Origin: a virus
Reading direction: 5' to 3' (one strand)
DNA length: 64,000 bases
IMG/VR virus record: IMGVR_UViG_3300013099_000021
Coordinates: 6,817 to 70,816 of that record
Each line of letters starts with the position of its first letter. Positions within the stretch are counted from its first letter, which is position 1. The position numbers were made by a program, and so were the translations under genes. The notes beneath the pieces are model-generated. The model had not been told where the DNA came from, searched no databases, and was given only the letters and a program-made list of their open reading frames with translations. Shown piece after piece: positions 2,229 through 56,869 of the stretch.

Positions 2229-2867
2229 CTACAACTTCAAATTATCAGCCGTAGGCTCTATCTTAGCATTAGAGGGATTGTAGCTGTTTGGGTAAGGGTT
2301 AGGCTCATTAAGCCTCTTCAGATCCATTCCCAGCCACATAATAGCCTCCTGTACCTTTGTAATGGCAAGCGACCTCTCCCTGGAACCATGACACCCCTTT
2401 ATGTTTTGCAGTTGAGCGTCCAGGCCAACACGGAGGAGTTTGTCTGCCTTGACATCTTTCCGGTGAGCTTCTTCTTGATCAATAATCCTCTGATCCTCAA
2501 AATTGAAATGAAATGGCTCCTGGACCAGGGAATCGACAATGCTTGCAAACAAGAGATCCTTCTTCTGCTGAAATACAGGTAACTTGTCGAATGTAACGAT
2601 ACAAGGGTGTGTCTTAGCACCGGGATCTTTCACCTCTCCCCACTCCCAACCATCATCAAGTTTATCTTTCACCCAGTTATTGTGCTGCGCTTCATGCCCT
2701 GCTCTCGGATTTTCAAGCCTGAACTGAACACCTTTAATGGCTGAATCCTGTTGCCATTTAGGTGCCTCAAACCAATCTGATTGACTGTCATCACCATTAG
2801 CCTCGCACCATGCCTTGTTAGCCTGGTGGCATACAATGGCCACGTAAATAATCATACTTTCATTCAT
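2229..2867 (-). CDS. RyR-domain protein fused to Acb2/Tad1-like helical hairpin
   Basis: HNNW...GWEWGEVKD..KTHPCIV.FDKLP (RyR); C-terminal SRERSLAITKVQEAIMWL; start at MNES 2867. Confidence 0.65.
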   Translation of the reverse strand: MNESMIIYVAIVCHQANKAWCEANGDDSQSDWFEAPKWQQDSAIKGVQFRLENPRAGHEAQHNNWVKDKLDDGWEWGEVKDPGAKTHPCIVTFDKLPVFQQKKDLLFASIVDSLVQEPFHFNFEDQRIIDQEEAHRKDVKADKLLRVGLDAQLQNIKGCHGSRERSLAITKVQEAIMWLGMDLKRLNEPNPYPNSYNPSNAKIEPTADNLKL

Positions 2868-2888
2868 AATTTGATATTTAAGGTTTAT

Positions 2889-2925
2889 AAAAAAAGGGTA
2901 GTAAGCCATCTCAGCTAACTACCCC
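2889..2925 (-). terminator. rho-independent terminator
   Basis: GGGTAGTTAGC-TGAGATG-GCTTACTACCC-TTTTTTT on - strand. Confidence 0.75.
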
Positions 2926-2967: not shown

Positions 2968-4503
2968 TCAAATACTATTTAACAAGGTGTTAATCTCTGC
3001 CGTTGTTGCTTTGTAGCAAAAATCCTCCTTCACCCTGTACTCTTGAAACTGGGGGAACTTGGTTTTAAGCATGGTGTCAAAGACTCCGTTATCAACACCG
3101 GCCACGTTAGCCATCTCTTCGAATAAAGTCTTAACCTGATCAAAACCCCTCTTGCCATCCACCAGGTCAGGAACATCGATGTTGAACTTATTGGTGTCCA
3201 CTCTTTCCTCGATAGGAGGCAAAGGATCTAGTTCCGGCTCTGGTTCCTGATTGCCCACTGGCTCCACCTCGATCTCATCAGTGGTCCTGGACTCATACTC
3301 GGCCTGTTGAGGATCTTCCGGTATCTTCTCTCCTATTGGTGGCATCTTGGCCACTGTGGAAGGATCACTTAGATCTGGATTTGCTGTTGGATCAAACTTC
3401 TCAATCATTCCGACCACATTACCCTCATAGAAGGAAAGGATAATCAACCGGAGCTTCTTATTGGTATTCTTCCCTGGATCAATTTCCCTGGCCTTGGTCA
3501 TCAGCCCATCACACTCAATTATAGTATTGAGATCTGCTGTGTCCATCTCCTTCATCTCCTCCATAGAGTAAACCATTACGAACCCCGGTGTGCCGTTAAG
3601 CATGGTGCCCTTGCTCTCTCTGGCTGGTTGATCGTCCTGGGTAACTGGATATGACTCTCCCAGTGTAGAAGGATACTTCTTCGCCTGACTGTCATCGGGC
3701 ATAGCATCATGCTCTACTGGTGGTGGTGGCTCCAAATCCCCTGCTCTCTTGTCGATCTGGGAATTAGCCTTGCTGGTCAGATCCTCGCTCCTATTCTTGG
3801 AGAAATCCTTATCCGGGATAATAACCTCTGTGCCTTGATTGGTGGTGACTACAACAGTGGTGTCCTGTGGCAGATCCATCGCTTCCTCAGTGGTGTAACT
3901 ACCACTCAGCACATCAGGAAACAGATCCCTGGCAAGGAAGCCAAGCACCCTGTATGCAATCATCCTCTCCGGATACTTGTACCATGCAGATTTAAGGTAC
4001 TTCCAACCATCCTGCCCATTGATCATCTTCTGAGTAATCCACAAGCCTGCTCTCTTAGCCTGGTCTACACCAAAGGTCCTGGACATGGTTTCCTGTGTAT
4101 CGGATCTCTTGGCAGTAATGGTACACTCATAACTTTCGTCACTAAGCGAACCAGTGATAGTTTCTTTCCAAGTTCCCGGGGCGAGCTTACCTGATTTGAA
4201 GATAAGCGTCTTAGCTGCATCTCCCTTGATACTGAGCAGACCGTTCACTGGGATAATGTGCTGCAGAGCTACCAATGGCTTTAGGCCAAGGTCATCACCA
4301 TGCACACAAACCAGGATAACCGAAGCTACATTCCCTTTGGCGTAGTCCGGCTTCCCTTTGTCATTCTTCTCGTAGAAATGATCAGGGGCCAGCCTGCTGT
4401 CCAGTATCATCTGTGCAGCCACCTTCATCTCATCTAGATTTTTAATTGCAGTGTCCAGGAATGTTCCTGTTCCGACTACTGCCACTTTTCTTTCTTGTTC
4501 CAT
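2968..4503 (-). CDS. RecT-like ssDNA annealing protein with long acidic C-terminal extension
   Basis: LGLKPLVALQHIIPVNG...AKRAGLW...WYKYPERMIAYRVLGFLARDLFPDVLSG motifs; partner YqaJ exonuclease in the same operon. Confidence 0.7.
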   Translation of the reverse strand: MEQERKVAVVGTGTFLDTAIKNLDEMKVAAQMILDSRLAPDHFYEKNDKGKPDYAKGNVASVILVCVHGDDLGLKPLVALQHIIPVNGLLSIKGDAAKTLIFKSGKLAPGTWKETITGSLSDESYECTITAKRSDTQETMSRTFGVDQAKRAGLWITQKMINGQDGWKYLKSAWYKYPERMIAYRVLGFLARDLFPDVLSGSYTTEEAMDLPQDTTVVVTTNQGTEVIIPDKDFSKNRSEDLTSKANSQIDKRAGDLEPPPPVEHDAMPDDSQAKKYPSTLGESYPVTQDDQPARESKGTMLNGTPGFVMVYSMEEMKEMDTADLNTIIECDGLMTKAREIDPGKNTNKKLRLIILSFYEGNVVGMIEKFDPTANPDLSDPSTVAKMPPIGEKIPEDPQQAEYESRTTDEIEVEPVGNQEPEPELDPLPPIEERVDTNKFNIDVPDLVDGKRGFDQVKTLFEEMANVAGVDNGVFDTMLKTKFPQFQEYRVKEDFCYKATTAEINTLLNSI

Positions 4504-4522: not shown

Positions 4523-5092
4523 TTATTTTACTTGTTTAAATTCGACTACCTCGAACACGCCAAACTCACCCTTATGTTCTGGCCTGTAACTTCCAATACC
4601 AAACATGGTCCCGGCAAACTCTAATATTGACTCAACGGTTTGTTTGGTGATCGTGTCATTCTTCACGTTAATAGTGAAGGAGAGGGATAAATCATTCCAC
4701 CTGGGTCTGATCGCAATGATTCGTGCCTTGACATTCCGGTTTACGGCACTACGCTTGTCAATAGTGTCGAAATCCCTGACAATAATCTCCTCCGGAGAGA
4801 CTGTGAATAGACCGGCAACGATGTTTGTCATGGACTTTCGACCATTGCCGACCTTTGCTTTCACCTGTGTCCCTCCATTTATTAGGGATTGCTTGATGTG
4901 TTCAGAAGGAACGAAACATTCCCCCTTACTGTTGCGATAACAGTGGAACTCTGCACGAACGAGATCCTCTTGGTTTACATCATCTCTCTCAATGATTTTA
5001 CCCCTGTTCTTTTCCCATTCTTCTAATTTCTGATCATCCATCCGATGTTGCATATACTTCTCGGTGTGGATCTTTACTCTAAATTGTTTCAT
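4523..5092 (-). CDS. stand-alone Cas7/RAMP-like protein (about 189 aa)
   Basis: N-terminal beta strand, YRNSKGECFVPSEHIKQSL (RAMP 'IPGSSLKG' equivalent), C-terminal Gly loop GIGSYRPEHKGEFGVFEV; ATG 5092 preceded by TCAAAGCT as in other genes here. Confidence 0.7.
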   Translation of the reverse strand: MKQFRVKIHTEKYMQHRMDDQKLEEWEKNRGKIIERDDVNQEDLVRAEFHCYRNSKGECFVPSEHIKQSLINGGTQVKAKVGNGRKSMTNIVAGLFTVSPEEIIVRDFDTIDKRSAVNRNVKARIIAIRPRWNDLSLSFTINVKNDTITKQTVESILEFAGTMFGIGSYRPEHKGEFGVFEVVEFKQVK

Positions 5093-5114
5093 AGCTTTGA
5101 ATTTTAAATTAAAC

Positions 5115-5474
5115 AAAAAATTACTGAACGAAACTAAACTCTACTTGACCTCACAAAACATCACATAACTAAACTTCAAAATACTGCACCTAACTCGACT
5201 TTACTTTACCTTGCGTTACTAAACATCACATCACACAACAGTACCAAACTTTAAAATACTATACATAACAGGACCCCACTTTACAACACAAAACCAAACA
5301 TCAAAATACTTGACTTCACAACACTTCACAGAACCCAACTTTACATAACATAACAACAAATTACTTTACAAAACTCAACTCAACGGCACATAACGTGACA
5401 CTACCTCACTATACTTTAAAATACTATACCGCACAAGACAATACCCTACCCCACATAACGTCACATGACCCTAC
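5115..5474 (-). ncRNA. 5-nt-periodic (GT-NNN)n guide-like array, six blocks separated by GTAWTTTNNN linkers
   Basis: AC in perfect 5-nt phase on + strand in 65 of 71 slots from 5120-5474; linkers at 5115, 5175, 5250, 5300, 5355, 5415; blocks of 10, 13, 8, 9, 10, 10 units. The repeat is directly seen; RNA function is inferred. Confidence 0.8.
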
Positions 5475-5475
5475 C

Positions 5476-6054
5476 TCAATAGTTTAATTGGTTGTGTTTC
5501 GATGTCCAGTTTCGGTCCCCTGGTGGATTCCAGGGTATTCCCAAAAAGTCAAAGAACGCATATTCAGTATCAAAGACCGGGGGCTTTGTTTCCTTCCCCT
5601 TAAACTCCTTTTTCAGGGTCCATTTAGATGCTTTTTTGTCACATTCAGCCTTACGCCTCAATCCCCACTCGGTACCGCACCATCCTAACCGGTTCCATGT
5701 AATTGCCAGTTTGATATGGCTGAAAGCAGAAGATCCTGTTCTGATTGCCAAAATTCGACCATAATCATGGCGCTGCGCTATATAAAGTTCCACCTGGATC
5801 TTGTCTTTAGGGTACTTAAACCGCTTTAGACGCTTACCATTGACAACCATCCCTGGATACTTTTCATGGAAGAGATTGTCCAGGCTGTTAAAAGCGCTCT
5901 CAGTGCAAACTATCTCAATATCGCCAACCTCCTTACATCCCCTGCGAACACTACCAGCTATCTCCCTGACATCTGTGTATGGTTCGATGAGGATAAGGAA
6001 CCGTCTGGCTACATTGAGTGCCTTTTCTAATTTGATCTTTTCTCCGCTACTCAT
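5476..6054 (-). CDS. minimal PolX-family nucleotidyltransferase
   Basis: IAGSVRRGCKEVGDIEIV, VELYI, RTGS motifs, C-terminal TEYAFFDFLGIPWNPP; start at MSSGEK 6054. Confidence 0.8.
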   Translation of the reverse strand: MSSGEKIKLEKALNVARRFLILIEPYTDVREIAGSVRRGCKEVGDIEIVCTESAFNSLDNLFHEKYPGMVVNGKRLKRFKYPKDKIQVELYIAQRHDYGRILAIRTGSSAFSHIKLAITWNRLGWCGTEWGLRRKAECDKKASKWTLKKEFKGKETKPPVFDTEYAFFDFLGIPWNPPGDRNWTSKHNQLNY

Positions 6055-6730
6055 CTCTGAGCTTTTTCGCAAAGTACGTCTGTCCCTTTCCTGTGATCTT
6101 TGTTGTCCTGCTAGTGAAAGTTTGATCTGCTGCTCCAATGGTTCTCTCAATCACTTCAAATAAACCTTGCTGAACATAGTTCTGATACGGTTCATTGCCT
6201 CTATTAAGGTACCCATTGTCCCGGAACCACTTAAATAACCTGTTCTGGCCTATCTCAAAACCGTCATCGCTCAAAATCTTTGCGAAGTGTCTTGTTAGAA
6301 TAGAGTTATCACTTCCGGAAACAGCATCAGCAAAAACAACCTTTGATCTGTCATTTTCGATTTTCGCTTCAAGGGCAAGTCGCTTTTGATACTCCTCCTG
6401 CCAGTTCTGAACCAGTTTAAGAACTGTCTCTGGATTGGTGAAGTCAATAGCTTTCTGTTCCAGCTCCTCCCACCTACGGTTAATCTTTATCCTTAACTCA
6501 ACACTATACCCAGTCATCAAGTCAAATGTCTGTATCCGGCTTAGAAGAAATTGAGGCTGCTCTTTGTTCTGCTCGTTCCGATAAGAGGACCGCTCAAGTT
6601 TGGGCAGTCCTAATTTCTCGTAGTTAACATTCAGAGTTTCAATATCACGAAGAACGTGCTTGTGTTGCTTCCCTGTCAACTCCGCAATCTCACGGCTTGA
6701 CATCGACTGCTTATTTGCTAATTCTTCCAT
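6047..6730 (-). CDS. Rha-family/ANT antirepressor
   Basis: MSSREIAELTGKQHKHVLRDI (Rha N-term); IGQNRLFKWFRDNGYL...TKITGKGQTYF (ANT C-term). Confidence 0.85.
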   Translation of the reverse strand: MEELANKQSMSSREIAELTGKQHKHVLRDIETLNVNYEKLGLPKLERSSYRNEQNKEQPQFLLSRIQTFDLMTGYSVELRIKINRRWEELEQKAIDFTNPETVLKLVQNWQEEYQKRLALEAKIENDRSKVVFADAVSGSDNSILTRHFAKILSDDGFEIGQNRLFKWFRDNGYLNRGNEPYQNYVQQGLFEVIERTIGAADQTFTSRTTKITGKGQTYFAKKLRDE

Positions 6731-9547: not shown

Positions 9548-10228
9548 TTACCTCCCTTTGTTTGGAATAGGGGTGATATTGTTCGCCATGTATAAGATCT
9601 TCGTGCTACCGGCTGCCCTGGCCCTGGCCTTGGTCATATCTAAAGCATACTCCCTCCGGGGCCACCTCAACTGACGGAGTGTGACTTTCTCATACTTCTC
9701 TTTCCAGTAAACATTACCAGTTATCAGATAGTTACGCCAATAGGTGTTCCCCCTTCTTCGTAGGTATCGGGGCATATCAACTGGCTCAATCCATGCTCCC
9801 GGAGATAAGTTACACCTAATCACCGCACAATTATACCAGGTGTAAGGATCTCTGGTCATACCGTGTTGAGTCCTAAATAGCCTGGGCTTTACTTTCTTTA
9901 AGTAGGCACCCCTTTCTTCATCAGAGGCGAATACAACAGGAAGCATCCTAAACCAATGGACGGTTTTCGACCAGCCATATTGCAACTTTTTTGTGGCAAT
10001 GAACTCCTCATTTCCCACATTGCAAGCATCGGGCCACCGCTTTTTTGCCATCAGGAGTTTGTACATGATAGGTATGAAAAAGGGATCACCAGTCTTTACT
10101 GTCCACTCACCCATGTTGGAAACAGCATCACCGATCCCATTTGGATAGAACCCATATAGATCTTTTTCCCAGTCGGGTGACTGGTGCCGAAATATTCCAT
10201 GCTCTTCAAAATAGACTGCCTCTGCCAT
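9548..10228 (-). CDS. hypothetical protein (Trp/Arg-rich)
   Basis: 226-aa ORF, TAATG coupling to yqaJ-like gene. Confidence 0.65.
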   Translation of the reverse strand: MAEAVYFEEHGIFRHQSPDWEKDLYGFYPNGIGDAVSNMGEWTVKTGDPFFIPIMYKLLMAKKRWPDACNVGNEEFIATKKLQYGWSKTVHWFRMLPVVFASDEERGAYLKKVKPRLFRTQHGMTRDPYTWYNCAVIRCNLSPGAWIEPVDMPRYLRRRGNTYWRNYLITGNVYWKEKYEKVTLRQLRWPRREYALDMTKARARAAGSTKILYMANNITPIPNKGR

Positions 10229-11332: not shown

Positions 11333-11623
11333 TTAATTCTCTTTTACGTTATCCTGAATAGTACGAACATTGGTCGCAATACGCTTTTGGACTTCATCAC
11401 TTTCTACCCACATCTTTTTGTTTCGTATAATAGAAACTTGAATTTGATATTCCTTGCCTGAAACAGGCGAGGTGACTTCTCCTGCTGCGTTCACAAGGTC
11501 ATAATCCATTAACTTTTCTTTCCTGTAAATCTTCCCTTCTACTGAAAAAAGAATGGTGACACATTCTAGTAATGCTTCGGTAAGATTTTTTGCCGCTTTA
11601 AGTTGTTCCGAATCTAATTTCAT
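11333..11623 (-). CDS. hypothetical protein
   Basis: coupled ORF, AT-rich. Confidence 0.55.
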   Translation of the reverse strand: MKLDSEQLKAAKNLTEALLECVTILFSVEGKIYRKEKLMDYDLVNAAGEVTSPVSGKEYQIQVSIIRNKKMWVESDEVQKRIATNVRTIQDNVKEN

Positions 11624-55663: not shown

Positions 55664-56869
55664 TTACTGGTTATAAGCATCCATCTCTGCATTAAAAATA
55701 TCATCCTGTATCTTCTCATCATCGGAAAGAACCGGTGCTGGTGTTACAGGTGGAGTATCATTATTGCGGTCAGGTGATGGATTTGCATAGACAGCATGGA
55801 CCTCTTCCTCCGTCATTCCCCTCGCTTTCTCAAATACGGAATGTACGATGTCTGGCAGCTTATTAATCATCAACTGGTTATAAACCATAGTAGAGATTGT
55901 TTTCACGTTTGTTTCGTTAAGTTCCATACGGTTCTGAACGGCATAACCTTTGACAAACTCAGTGATCTCCTTTTGTTCGGATTCTGAAACTTCATAGTCC
56001 AGGAGAGCCTCTTTACTGTCCTTGATGGGTATTTTCAGCTTTGCCAGTGCGGTACTGACGTTTTGGCCCACACTATTCCAACCTGACTCTAAGGTTGCTT
56101 TCGCCTCCGGGGTTAACTCCTTTGGCTGTTGAGGATCATCGTCTGGTGTCGGGACAATTAACTTGTCCTTCAATTCTTGTAATGCCCTCTTTGCGGTGGC
56201 TCCATCTGCCTCCATTCCAATTTTATTGACTTCAAGATCAGACTCGTCAACCTGGTCTGGATCCACGTTGTACTTCTTCTCGAAATACTTGCGTATCTGT
56301 GGCTCCTTACCAGAAAGTTCGGGGTGATCGAGTACGTATTTGGTTGTTAACGCTTCCATGGAATCCATGGTCGCAACCTCCGCACTGTTGATCTTACTAA
56401 AAACCCCATAATCGCCTGTGCCAGTTTCTTTCACGAACTCGTTAAATAAAGCCATCTCGTCATTTGCGAAATTTGTTTTGGGCTTCGACTCAAGTTTGCT
56501 TTCAAGATCAGTCTTTGTCTGTCTCAGACTCACGACCTCATCCATTAAACCGACTATATTGGCACTCTTGGCCTCATCTACCGTCTTAAAACGATCTCCG
56601 AAAATCTCTTTCAGCATATCGCCTTGCGGTGGACTGGCCGGATCTACTACTGGTGGTGTTGGTGTTGGCGGATCTCCTATTGGAGGATCTGCTACCGGTG
56701 GATCCGGTGTTGGTGTTGGAGGATCTGCCACTGGCGGATCTGCCACTGGCGGATCTGCTGGTTCGCCTCCTGCTTGCTCTACCAAATTCGCTGCATCGAT
56801 TCCTTCAATATCCTGAAGGGCTGCGAACTCAGGGTTGTTCTGGATTTCACTAAATGATTGTTTTGTCAT
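55664..56869 (-). CDS. putative scaffolding protein
   Basis: acidic, Pro-rich N-terminus, between portal and MCP. Confidence 0.65.
   Translation of the reverse strand: MTKQSFSEIQNNPEFAALQDIEGIDAANLVEQAGGEPADPPVADPPVADPPTPTPDPPVADPPIGDPPTPTPPVVDPASPPQGDMLKEIFGDRFKTVDEAKSANIVGLMDEVVSLRQTKTDLESKLESKPKTNFANDEMALFNEFVKETGTGDYGVFSKINSAEVATMDSMEALTTKYVLDHPELSGKEPQIRKYFEKKYNVDPDQVDESDLEVNKIGMEADGATAKRALQELKDKLIVPTPDDDPQQPKELTPEAKATLESGWNSVGQNVSTALAKLKIPIKDSKEALLDYEVSESEQKEITEFVKGYAVQNRMELNETNVKTISTMVYNQLMINKLPDIVHSVFEKARGMTEEEVHAVYANPSPDRNNDTPPVTPAPVLSDDEKIQDDIFNAEMDAYNQ
56640..56765. repeat. coding tandem repeats (DPPVA/DPPTPT)
   Basis: GGATCTGCCACTGGC-type 15-bp units in scaffold gene. Confidence 0.8.

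What the first reader, a model, noticed from the sequence alone, without database searches (positions are those of the whole stretch)
5115..5424. Five further guide-like blocks with U-rich linkers: a multiplexed target list
Seen, decoded sense strings: E ATAGAGAGTCACTATGCCTGATGATTTAAA; D TATTATAAATGGTCTGAAGTTGAACAA (YYKWSEVEQ); C TTGTTTGTTAAAGGGCCTTATATA (LFVKGPYI); B TTGACTTGTGATGATTTAAACAAGAAAAAACGATAGGCA; A TTATATGATTTTGAGCAAAGATTATTCTCA (LYDFEQRLFS). Each block ends in a 10-nt phase-preserving linker (GTATTTTAAA, GTAATTTGTT, GTATTTTGAT, GTATTTTAAA, GTATTTTGAA, GTAATTTTTT), a likely processing or boundary signal. Block D reads like the C-terminal YYK.SEV motif of excisionase-type HTH proteins of Bacteroidota mobile elements (inference). 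I found no convincing in-window target for these five by eye.
Basis: partly seen in the sequence, partly recalled or inferred. Interest (0 to 1): 0.75.

Follow-up and report, generated by a model that had tools for sequence, protein, structure and literature searches.

The report
Phage VIPR guide-RNA array
This stretch is a head-to-tail array of short guide RNAs written in five-letter repeats, lying beside the small Cas7-like protein of the recently described phage system VIPR, which viruses use to silence rival viruses; it is a new example of a known kind.

Summary
On the minus strand, window 5474-5110 is 73 in-phase pentamers, 66 of them GTNNN, cut into six blocks by 10-nt GTAWT-TTNNN linkers. 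Nothing else in the window resembles it. It is the guide array of a VIPR system (bioRxiv preprints, 2026). The gene directly downstream (4523-5092, minus) folds as a Cas7-like RAMP and aligns with the Vipr protein of a canonical GGTNN locus (hhalign 98%). Of 86 relatives, 83 carry a co-oriented G(T/C)NNN array. The repeat is the non-canonical WGU/NN (YNNNG) form, and the Asp that reads the first G in the solved Vipr is Ser here. Local searches support the published register, in which one pentamer reads three target bases. The neighbouring block 0 matches a related phage's PolX gene 18/18 and its own PolX 17/20, and relatives' guides hit this phage. For the five blocks of the finding, no target was found in the genome or in 5 Mb of related sequence. 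Their targets remain unknown and the excisionase guess is untested. The third variable letter tracks the target codon (20 of 23), which the published two-letter code does not predict. Verdict: a new member of a known kind.

The parts
4523..5092 (-). vipr gene: a 189-aa Cas7-like RAMP, the protein partner of the array
   Evidence: phrog_4652, function unknown. No Pfam, NCBIfam or PADLOC family. 690 homologues, all unnamed or 'hypothetical protein'. AF2 model with pLDDT 84.3. Foldseek top hits are Cas7 of type VII, Csm3 and Cmr4, E 7e-7 to 1e-4. hhalign against the Vipr of phage tootiki: probability 98%, E 1.8e-13.
5110..5474 (-). whole vrRNA array: 73 in-phase pentamers forming six guides head to tail. 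It starts 2 nt after the stop codon of the upstream gene and ends 17 nt before the vipr start codon.
5425..5474 (-). block 0 (10 pentamers), outside the finding. It is a guide matching PolX genes.
   Evidence: 18/18 two-letter match over pentamers 2-10 to the PolX gene of related phage G003. 17/20 to the phage's own PolX at 5743-5772. Shuffles reach at most 16.
5365..5414 (-). block E (10 pentamers), followed by linker 5355-5364; the preceding linker is 5415-5424
   Evidence: Related guides occur in L141 and L142. No target found.
5310..5354 (-). block D (9 pentamers), followed by linker 5300-5309
   Evidence: A related guide in L141 differs at third letters. No target found.
5260..5299 (-). 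block C (8 pentamers), followed by linker 5250-5259
   Evidence: No target found.
5185..5249 (-). block B (13 pentamers, one of them GCNNN), followed by linker 5175-5184
   Evidence: No target found.
5125..5174 (-). block A (10 pentamers), followed by linker 5115-5124 and one last pentamer at 5110-5114
   Evidence: Identical block with the same linker in L141, whose Vipr is 96% identical. No target found.
5743..5772 (-). self-like site of block 0 inside the upstream PolX-like gene (residues RHDYGRILAI)
   Evidence: 10/10 residues, 20/30 letters and 17/20 two-letter positions match. The three mismatches are the first bases of two Arg codons and one Leu codon.
4550..4576 (-). site near the 3' end of this phage's vipr gene that is matched by a guide of another phage
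   Evidence: The downstream vrRNA of L126 matches it 18/18. The same guide matches the vipr genes of L142 and L144 at 22/22.

Best explanation
The region is the vrRNA array of a VIPR (Viral Interference Programmable Repeat) system carried by a phage of Bacteroidota. The array is transcribed on the minus strand, the strand of the vipr gene just downstream (inferred). Each of the six blocks would be one guide. One Vipr protomer binds one pentamer, holds the constant G-U with the letter before it, and presents the variable letters. The filament then binds double-stranded DNA in which each pentamer reads three consecutive target bases, and it blocks transcription there. These steps are taken from the SUSP1 and P. 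fulva systems and are not shown here. The U-rich 10-nt linkers mark the 3' boundary of each guide (inferred).

The targets are most likely genes of closely related or co-resident phages and other mobile elements. This is shown for block 0 and for relatives' guides. It is not shown for the five blocks of the finding.

The system belongs to a non-canonical clade. The repeat is WGU/NN (also written YNNNG) rather than GGY/NN. There is no structured tail and no conserved accessory gene.
For: 1. Array. 66 of 73 in-phase pentamers are GTNNN, and the pattern is unique in the window.

2. Partner protein. The model has pLDDT 84.3 and pTM 0.79. The best PDB folds are Cas7-family RAMPs, with 85 matches at E <= 0.001. 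The G-loop columns G161, G165, G167, S168, R170, P171, G175, F177 and G178 are invariant in 33 sequences.

3. Homology to a canonical system. Phage tootiki (MN850647) has GGTNN pentamer runs on both sides of a two-gene cassette. Its protein aligns with the clade profile at 98% probability, E 1.8e-13, over 178 columns. The RNA-contact residues named in the cryo-EM preprint (Results part 1 read) map as H17 to H16, E71 to E64, R138 to R129, W178 to Y169 and R179 to R170. D177, which reads the first G, is Ser168 here. That fits the relaxed first letter.

4. Association. A blind DNA-pattern scan of IMG/VR for ten GT at period 5 returned 120 loci, and 23 of them carry a homologue of this protein. 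Of 86 de-duplicated loci found through the protein, 83 have a G(T/C)NNN array within 2.5 kb on the same strand. In these loci, 196 arrays within 2.5 kb are co-oriented and 1 is opposite.

5. Repeat logo over 2100 pentamers: G 97%, T 95% or C 4%, then three variable letters, the third being A or T in 76%. This equals the 'WGT/NN' class (passages read) and the 'YNNNG' class (Methods read).

6. Register. 235 arrays were searched against about 4 Mb in 10-pentamer windows. The rule 'two letters plus one skipped, step 3' gave 5 hits at 20/20 and 5 at 19/20, against 0 and 2 for reversed guides. Five other rules gave 0 hits at 20/20. Three letters at step 3 gave 4 hits at 26-28 of 30, against a control maximum of 25. 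Steps 4 and 5 gave none above 25 for real guides.

7. Targets among kin. Block 0 matches the G003 PolX gene. An L142 guide matches this phage's genome at 3175-3204, 20/20. An L126 guide matches vipr genes.

8. Close relatives keep the architecture but change the guides.
Against: No RNA data exist, so transcription, strand, processing and guide ends are all inferred.

None of the five blocks of the finding has a match above shuffles. Best matches in the phage's own genome are 65-75% of two-letter positions. The same negative result holds in 5.0 Mb of both-strand sequence, which includes five whole related contigs.

The register test rests on few independent cases. Four of the five perfect hits come from one guide hitting homologous vipr genes.

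The canonical consensus (GGY) and the structured 3' tail are absent. The array RNA folds little better than shuffles, z -1.66, with 5 of 100 shuffles folding as well. No accessory gene is conserved; the commonest neighbour family occurs in 6 of 86 loci.

Block 0 matches its own genome at 85% of two-letter positions. The first preprint reports no self-match at or above 80% in its sets.

I could not see the preprints' supplementary figures and data. They may already show this clade, its type and its array form.
Confidence: 0.87

Rival explanations
1. The array does not guide this phage's own Vipr against rivals. It instead acts as a decoy or redirecting RNA, like the solo vrRNAs of satellites that send another element's VIPR complex to harmless sites. 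Alternatively it regulates the phage's own operon.
For: Solo vrRNAs with decoy roles are described (abstract and section 8 read). Self-like matches exist here: block 0 matches the gene just upstream at 17/20, and two L126 guides match their own locus at 20/22 each. Under the two-letter rule, 12 hits fell in the guide's own locus against 5.9 expected from size, all within 2.4 kb.
Against: The array is adjacent to and co-oriented with an intact vipr gene, so it is not 'solo'. Self-matches score lower than matches to other phages: 16/18 against 18/18 for block 0 over pentamers 2-10, and 20/22 against 22/22 for the L126 guide. That is the pattern described for avoiding autoimmunity. Eight of the 12 same-locus hits are at 17/20, and seven of these look like chance.
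Confidence: 0.07
2. The pentamer periodicity is a DNA-level signal and not an RNA. It could be a replication origin, a packaging site or a protein-binding iteron field in the replication module.
For: The region lies among replication and recombination genes: RecT, an SSB-like protein, a topoisomerase-like protein and a PolX-like protein. The strand composition is strongly skewed.
Against: The array travels with the vipr gene and not with the replication genes. The four PolX loci without vipr have no array. L126 has the array next to a GIY-YIG gene instead. Arrays are co-oriented with vipr 196 to 1. The variable letters match coding sequences of other phages in a 5-to-3 register, which no iteron model predicts.
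Confidence: 0.03
3. The blocks are read as protein: short peptides made by an unusual five-base decoding or after removal of the GU dinucleotides.
For: With GT dropped, block 0 spells exactly ten residues of the neighbouring protein. Third letters are synonymous in 20 of 23 informative positions.
Against: Blocks E and B contain stop triplets. TAA and TGA are not depleted among 3726 pentamers: 104 against 111 expected, and 58 against 61. No mechanism for such decoding is known. The VIPR code explains codon-register matches without translation.
Confidence: 0.01

Closest known systems
Type II VIPR systems of Escherichia phage SUSP1 and a Pseudomonas fulva prophage (bioRxiv 10.64898/2026.04.26.720920 and 10.64898/2026.04.26.720927)
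   Same: A small (~20 kDa) RAMP protein sits next to co-oriented runs of 8-16 pentamer repeats with constant and hypervariable letters. Five guide letters correspond to three target letters. Matches fall in the codon register of genes of rival phages, including rival vipr genes. The RNA-contact residues H17, E71, R138 and R179 are conserved in the alignment.
   Different: The constant part is G-U preceded by a mostly A/T letter, not GGY. The Asp that reads the first G is Ser. There is no ~40-nt structured tail or pseudoknot, only U-rich 10-nt boundaries. No vap gene is present. Six guides are fused in one phase directly upstream of vipr. The third variable letter carries codon information. The host is Bacteroidota, from sediment and vent metagenomes.
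Non-canonical VIPR-like arrays: 'WGT/NN' and others in bioRxiv 10.64898/2026.10.21.760802, 'YNNNG' repeats and 'staggered arrays' in the first VIPR preprint
   Same: The same repeat class. A head-to-tail layout in which the end of one guide is the start of the next, as the legend of fig. S18 describes. A Vipr-like fold lies next to the array.
   Different: I saw only text passages and legends. No figure, locus or sequence was available, so I cannot say whether this clade is among those shown. In the text I read, neither paper states the targeting rule, the targets or the role of the third letter for this class.
Class 1 CRISPR-Cas backbone (Cas7, Csm3, Cmr4 filaments on crRNA)
   Same: The same fold: RRM core, G-loop and thumb. 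One protomer binds per fixed number of guide bases, with periodic interruption of pairing.
   Different: There are no 23-50-nt direct repeats or spacers, no Cas1/Cas2, no Cas6, Cas5 or large subunit. The period is 5 and not 6. It is encoded by a phage.
TIGR-Tas systems
   Same: Phage-borne tandem guide arrays with short periodic conserved letters, beside a small effector.
   Different: The period is given as 18 nt in the passage read. The Nop-domain effector is recalled from memory. No Pfam family was found in the protein here, and its fold is a RAMP.

Membership tests
VIPR | Vipr protein: a single-RRM RAMP with a glycine-rich loop and a thumb | tested here: met
   AF2 model, pLDDT 84.3. Foldseek hits to Cas7, Csm3 and Cmr4, E down to 6.6e-7. 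Invariant G-loop columns in 33 sequences.
VIPR | Sequence homology to a Vipr protein of the experimentally studied type II clade | tested here: met
   hhalign of A1 against the protein of phage tootiki gives probability 98%, E 1.8e-13. That protein carries the residue numbers cited for SUSP1 Vipr and is flanked by GGTNN runs. That tootiki belongs to the SUSP1 clade is my inference from those numbers and from the locus layout.
VIPR | Runs of tandem pentanucleotide repeats beside vipr and co-oriented with it, with constant and hypervariable positions | tested here: met
   66 of 73 pentamers in the window. 83 of 86 clade loci. 196 arrays co-oriented against 1 opposite. Logo.
VIPR | Canonical repeat consensus GGY/NN | tested here: not met
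   The first letter of the trinucleotide is A 39%, T 37%, G 13.5%, C 10%. This fits the published non-canonical classes YNNNG and WGT/NN, so it does not exclude membership.
VIPR | 9-16 repeats per vrRNA | tested here: met
   Blocks of 8-13 pentamers, or 9-14 when the GTAWT pentamer of the linker is counted.
VIPR | Conserved structured 3' tail (a pseudoknot in the SUSP1 clade) | tested here: not met
   Only 10-nt U-rich linkers are present. The clade-wide boundary consensus is GTWTT followed by T/A-rich letters. Whole-array fold z is -1.66. The preprint describes other array forms without such tails.
VIPR | Noncontiguous code: five guide letters read three target letters | tested here: met
   Only step 3 gives perfect or near-perfect hits above reversed-guide controls. 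The data set is small, with about five independent guide-target families.
VIPR | Natural targets in competing phages or mobile elements, with self-matches lower | tested here: inconclusive
   Met for block 0, for one L142 guide and for one L126 guide. Not met for the five blocks of the finding, for which no target was found.
VIPR | vrRNA expressed and bound by Vipr; DNA binding and silencing | not testable with these tools
   No RNA holder is listed among public runs. This needs bench work.
VIPR | Accessory vap gene (typical, not universal) | tested here: not met
   The commonest neighbour family occurs in 6 of 86 loci. Stand-alone vipr genes are reported.
CRISPR-Cas | Array of long direct repeats with unique spacers, plus cas genes beyond a single RAMP | tested here: not met
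   No such repeats in the window. The neighbours are RecT-like and PolX-like genes. There is no PADLOC hit.

The most novel reading that the evidence does not exclude
In this GU/NNN clade the third variable letter is not a fixed, protein-held base as in GGY/NN systems. It is specified by the target, so each protomer would present a three-letter word, one whole codon, with a 'soft' third position. The guides are aimed at near-kin alleles of the genes flanking the cassette. The phage's own alleles are protected only by synonymous first-base switches at Arg and Leu codons, the one kind of silent change that a wobble-blind code cannot ignore.
Probability: 0.3. Interest if true: 0.65.

Novelty: new member of a known kind. 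Interest (0 to 1): 0.5.

Why it matters
VIPR was described only in 2026. Its mechanism is known from two closely related proteobacterial systems with the GGY/NN repeat.

This locus and its roughly 690 protein relatives show the same machinery in phages of Bacteroidota from sediments and vents. It appears here in stripped-down form: one gene, no accessory gene, no structured tail, and six guides fused in phase.

The locus offers a compact natural multiplex array and a variant protein pocket (Asp to Ser) that goes with a freed repeat letter. If that letter is read, the code would hold three letters per protomer instead of two, which bears on design rules for programmable DNA binding.

The self-like guide, with mismatches only at six-fold-degenerate codons, gives a concrete and testable case of how a phage tells its own allele from a close relative's under a code built to ignore wobble changes.

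Tried and rejected
1. Contiguous decoded strings against the 70.8-kb genome gave nothing above 100 shuffles for any of the six blocks.

2. Decoded peptides against the six-frame translation matched only for block 0, at 10/10. The other blocks reached 5-6 identical residues at best.

3. The two-letter code was tried for the five blocks against the phage's own genome (200 shuffles each). It was also tried against 5.0 Mb of both-strand sequence made of all fetched loci plus the whole contigs G001-G005 (20 shuffles each). The best scores were E 17/20, D 16/18, C 13/16, B 20/26 and A 16/20. Each lies at or within one of the shuffle maxima, so I do not treat any as a target.

4. Rfam gave 0 matches at gathering score in the window.

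5. blastn of 4523-6150 against GenBank phages found no match.

6. I considered the upstream PolX-like gene as partner of the array. I rejected it because the four PolX loci L001-L004 have no array.

7. I considered a planted or synthetic sequence because of the recoded peptide. I rejected this because the same architecture occurs in other public contigs and the array is identical in independent runs.

8. I asked whether the linkers are Bacteroidota -7 promoter boxes (TAnnTTTG, a consensus recalled from memory). There are 0 matches in the array, since the linkers are one T short.

9. I tested for stop-triplet depletion as a sign that third letters are codon letters. TAA and TGA are not depleted; TAG is, at 15 against 38 expected. 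This is inconclusive.

10. I compared third-letter changes between homologous guides of different loci (14 unique pairs). Two-fold boxes showed 12 transitions and 4 transversions; four-fold boxes showed 8 and 4 (Fisher p 0.69). This is not discriminating.

11. No RNA holder is listed among public runs.

12. No conserved accessory gene was found.

14. Scans of the large collections with patterns derived from the blocks were not run; see the next steps.

Full report
**What is there.** The region between two minus-strand genes is read here on the minus strand. It is a single run of 73 pentamers in one phase, window 5474 down to 5110. Of these, 66 are GTNNN, one is GCNNN and six are TTNNN. Each TTNNN pentamer follows a GTATT or GTAAT. 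The array starts two bases after the stop codon of the upstream gene and ends 17 bases before the start codon of the downstream gene. Period-5 AC (the plus-strand view) reaches 19 of 20 only here and never exceeds 8 of 20 elsewhere in the 64 kb. The window is bases 6817-70816 of a 70,816-bp virus record, and my detector found no second array in it.

**An early puzzle.** Dropping GT and translating gives, for the block just outside the finding (block 0, 5425-5474), ten residues that are exactly RHDYGRILAI. This is a stretch of the protein encoded immediately upstream, at 5743-5772. Only 20 of the 30 letters agree, and every difference is synonymous. That looked artificial, so I checked whether the feature is natural. 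It is. A homologue of the downstream gene in another IMG/VR contig (L005) has the same kind of array in the same place. Metagenome contigs with 96%, 89%, 80% and 71% identical proteins do too, with different guide content. Contigs from two other studies carry this very array without a single difference.

**What it belongs to.** The array goes with the downstream gene and not the upstream one. Four loci with the upstream (PolX-like) gene lack any array. Starting from the protein, 98 loci were fetched. After removing duplicates, 86 loci have a protein at least 45% identical, and 83 of these have a G(T/C)NNN array within 2.5 kb on the same strand. Within that distance, 196 arrays are co-oriented with the gene (135 downstream, 61 upstream) and one is opposite. 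The three genome-collection loci are MAG contigs labelled Cyclobacteriaceae, Draconibacterium and Bacteroidales.

**The protein.** The protein has 189 residues and matches phrog_4652, which has no known function. It has no Pfam, NCBIfam or PADLOC family. It has 690 homologues in the large protein collection, and none of the 120 listed carries a name beyond 'hypothetical protein'. Its model (pLDDT 84.3, pTM 0.79) matches Cas7-family RAMPs: type VII Cas7, Csm3 and Cmr4.

**The literature.** A full-text search found the VIPR preprints.
- First preprint. I read its abstract, Results, Discussion, two parts of the Methods and some legends. It describes phage-encoded Vipr proteins as ancestral RAMPs. 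Their vrRNAs consist of 9-16 pentamer repeats, with GGY constant and NN variable, and they bind double-stranded DNA so that each pentamer reads three target bases, the third being skipped. Targets lie in competing phages and satellites. Its Methods mention alternative repeats NNNGG, YNNNG and NNNNG, and a legend describes 'staggered' arrays in which one vrRNA ends where the next begins.
- Structural preprint. I read the abstract and the first part of the Results. It shows one protomer per repeat and names the residues that hold G1, G2 and Y3.
- Language-model preprint. I read only passages. It lists non-canonical repeat classes, including WGT/NN, next to Vipr-like folds.
- Fourth preprint. I read the abstract and section 8. 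It describes vrRNAs that target rival vipr genes, with self-matches scoring lower than non-self matches.
- I could not see any supplementary figure or data file. These may already show this clade.

**Membership.** Phage tootiki, the best GenBank hit, has a canonical locus. GGTNN runs with a hairpin tail lie upstream and downstream of a two-gene cassette; the record annotates them only as repeat regions. Its protein carries exactly the residue numbers cited for SUSP1 Vipr. The clade profile aligns to it with 98% probability (E 1.8e-13). In that alignment H17, E71, R138 and R179 are conserved and W178 becomes Tyr. D177, one of the two residues that read G1, is the invariant Ser168 here. The repeat logo fits this: G 97%, then T 95% or C 4% (the published G2 and Y3). 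There is no structured tail. Boundaries across the clade are GTWTT followed by T/A-rich letters, and the whole array folds little better than shuffles. No neighbouring gene is conserved.

**The code, tested on local data.** I searched 235 arrays (4530 pentamers) in 10-pentamer windows against about 4 Mb of fetched sequence with the arrays masked.
- Taking the first two variable letters with a target step of 3 gave five hits at 20/20 and five at 19/20. Reversed guides gave none and two.
- The other letter pairs, and steps of 2, 4 or 5, gave no 20/20 hit.
- All three letters at step 3 gave four hits at 26-28 of 30, against a control maximum of 25. Steps 4 and 5 gave none above 25 for real guides.
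- The evidence is thin. Four of the five perfect hits are one guide, the vrRNA just downstream of vipr in L126, matching homologous vipr genes. It matches L142 and L144 at 22/22, its own gene and L141 at 20/20, and L145 and this window (about 4550-4576) at 18/18.
- The remaining convincing cases are four. A guide of L142 (Vipr 89% identical) matches this phage's genome at 3175-3204, outside the window and apparently intergenic, at 20/20. Block 0 matches the PolX gene of G003 at 18/18 over pentamers 2-10. Two guides match genes in their own loci: L126 at 20/22 and L207 at 18/20.

**Block 0 and self.** Against its own PolX gene, block 0 matches 17 of 20 two-letter positions. One of 200 shuffles reached 17. 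The three mismatches are the first bases of two Arg codons and one Leu codon. The phage has CGC, CGA and TTG where the guide has AG, AG and CT. At the second Arg, five of five relatives (L001-L004, L142) have AGG. At the Leu, four of five have CTN. The guide thus fits an allele that encodes the same peptide with the relatives' codons. The phage's own allele differs only where a silent first-base change is possible. I read this as targeting of near kin with self spared (inference). An alternative is weak self-regulation, because the site lies upstream of the array and vipr on the same strand.

**The third letter.** Perfect two-letter matches carry few identical third letters: 2/11, 5/11, 3/10, 7/10, 3/9 and 6/9 for the vipr-targeting guide, and 3/9 for block 0. 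The letter is therefore not needed for a match, as the published code says. Two other results point the other way.
- In the four in-frame guide-gene pairs, the third letter falls in the synonymous set in 20 of 23 split codon boxes, against 12.0 expected (simulated P 1.6e-4).
- The one apparently non-coding target has 8 of 10 identical third letters.
- Two further tests were uninformative.
- Either the letter is read softly, or guides are copied from real coding sequence and keep its third base. The text I read predicts neither.

**The five blocks of the finding.** None has a target in the genome, where best matches are 65-75% of two-letter positions and no better than shuffles. None has one in 5.0 Mb of related sequence, including five whole related contigs. 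Block A with its linker is identical in L141, and blocks D and E have recognisable relatives in L141 and L142. The guides are therefore maintained among close relatives. Their targets probably lie in elements not represented in what I could hold locally. The decisive search of large collections needs patterns derived from the blocks and was left out. The excisionase reading of block D stays a guess. It is in line with the kinds of genes VIPR is reported to hit, an excision recombinase and lysis-lysogeny regulators, but nothing here tests it.

**Verdict.** It belongs to a family published in 2026, in a non-canonical and minimal form.

Noticed in passing
window 5476-6054 (minus): The upstream gene encodes a 192-aa protein with weak Pfam hits to the DNA polymerase beta thumb (3e-5) and palm (3e-3), both below the curated cut-offs. 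It looks like a minimal PolX made of palm and thumb only. Homologues 58-78% identical occur in four IMG/VR contigs. It is not part of the VIPR cassette but is the self-like match of block 0.
   Followed up: partly
window 2229-2909 (minus): A 226-aa protein with a RyR domain (4.9e-9) and a hit to the Acb2/Tad1 hairpin domain just below the cut-off (8e-6). It is a candidate anti-defence nucleotide sponge, two genes downstream of the VIPR locus.
   Followed up: no
genome G000 3175-3204 (outside the window, upstream of base 1): A guide in contig L142, whose Vipr is 89% identical, matches this site 20/20 at two-letter positions and 28/30 overall. The site lies in a gap of about 450 bp between ORFs. 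So this phage is itself a likely target of a relative's VIPR.
   Followed up: partly
window 4550-4576 (minus): The 3' end of this phage's vipr gene is matched 18/18 by the vrRNA that lies just downstream of vipr in L126. The same guide matches four other vipr genes at 20/20 to 22/22, its own among them.
   Followed up: partly
clade loci, within 2.4 kb of the guide: Under the two-letter rule, 12 hits at 17/20 or better fell in the guide's own locus against 5.9 expected from size. All were within 2.4 kb and 10 were on the same strand. Four are convincing in-frame matches to neighbouring genes (L126 twice, L207, this window). The first preprint reports no self-match at 80% or more in its sets.
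   Followed up: partly
L005/L126, upstream of the array (L005 2170-2799): In this relative the gene upstream of the array looks like a GIY-YIG homing endonuclease, judged by eye from its N-terminal motif. This suggests the cassette sits at a recombination-prone spot.
   Followed up: no
window 5185-5249 and 5365-5414: The decoded strings of blocks B and E share a 12-letter stretch, but shifted by one letter relative to the pentamer frame. Under the two-letter code it is not a shared target.
   Followed up: no
L241 (phage tootiki, MN850647, record 10139-10191 and 11405-11446): The GenBank record annotates the canonical GGTNN vrRNA runs only as 'repeat_region', and the vipr and accessory genes as hypothetical proteins.
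   Followed up: no
window 56655-56755: A 51-nt tandem repeat of two copies with an inner 15-nt period, G/T-rich.
   Followed up: no
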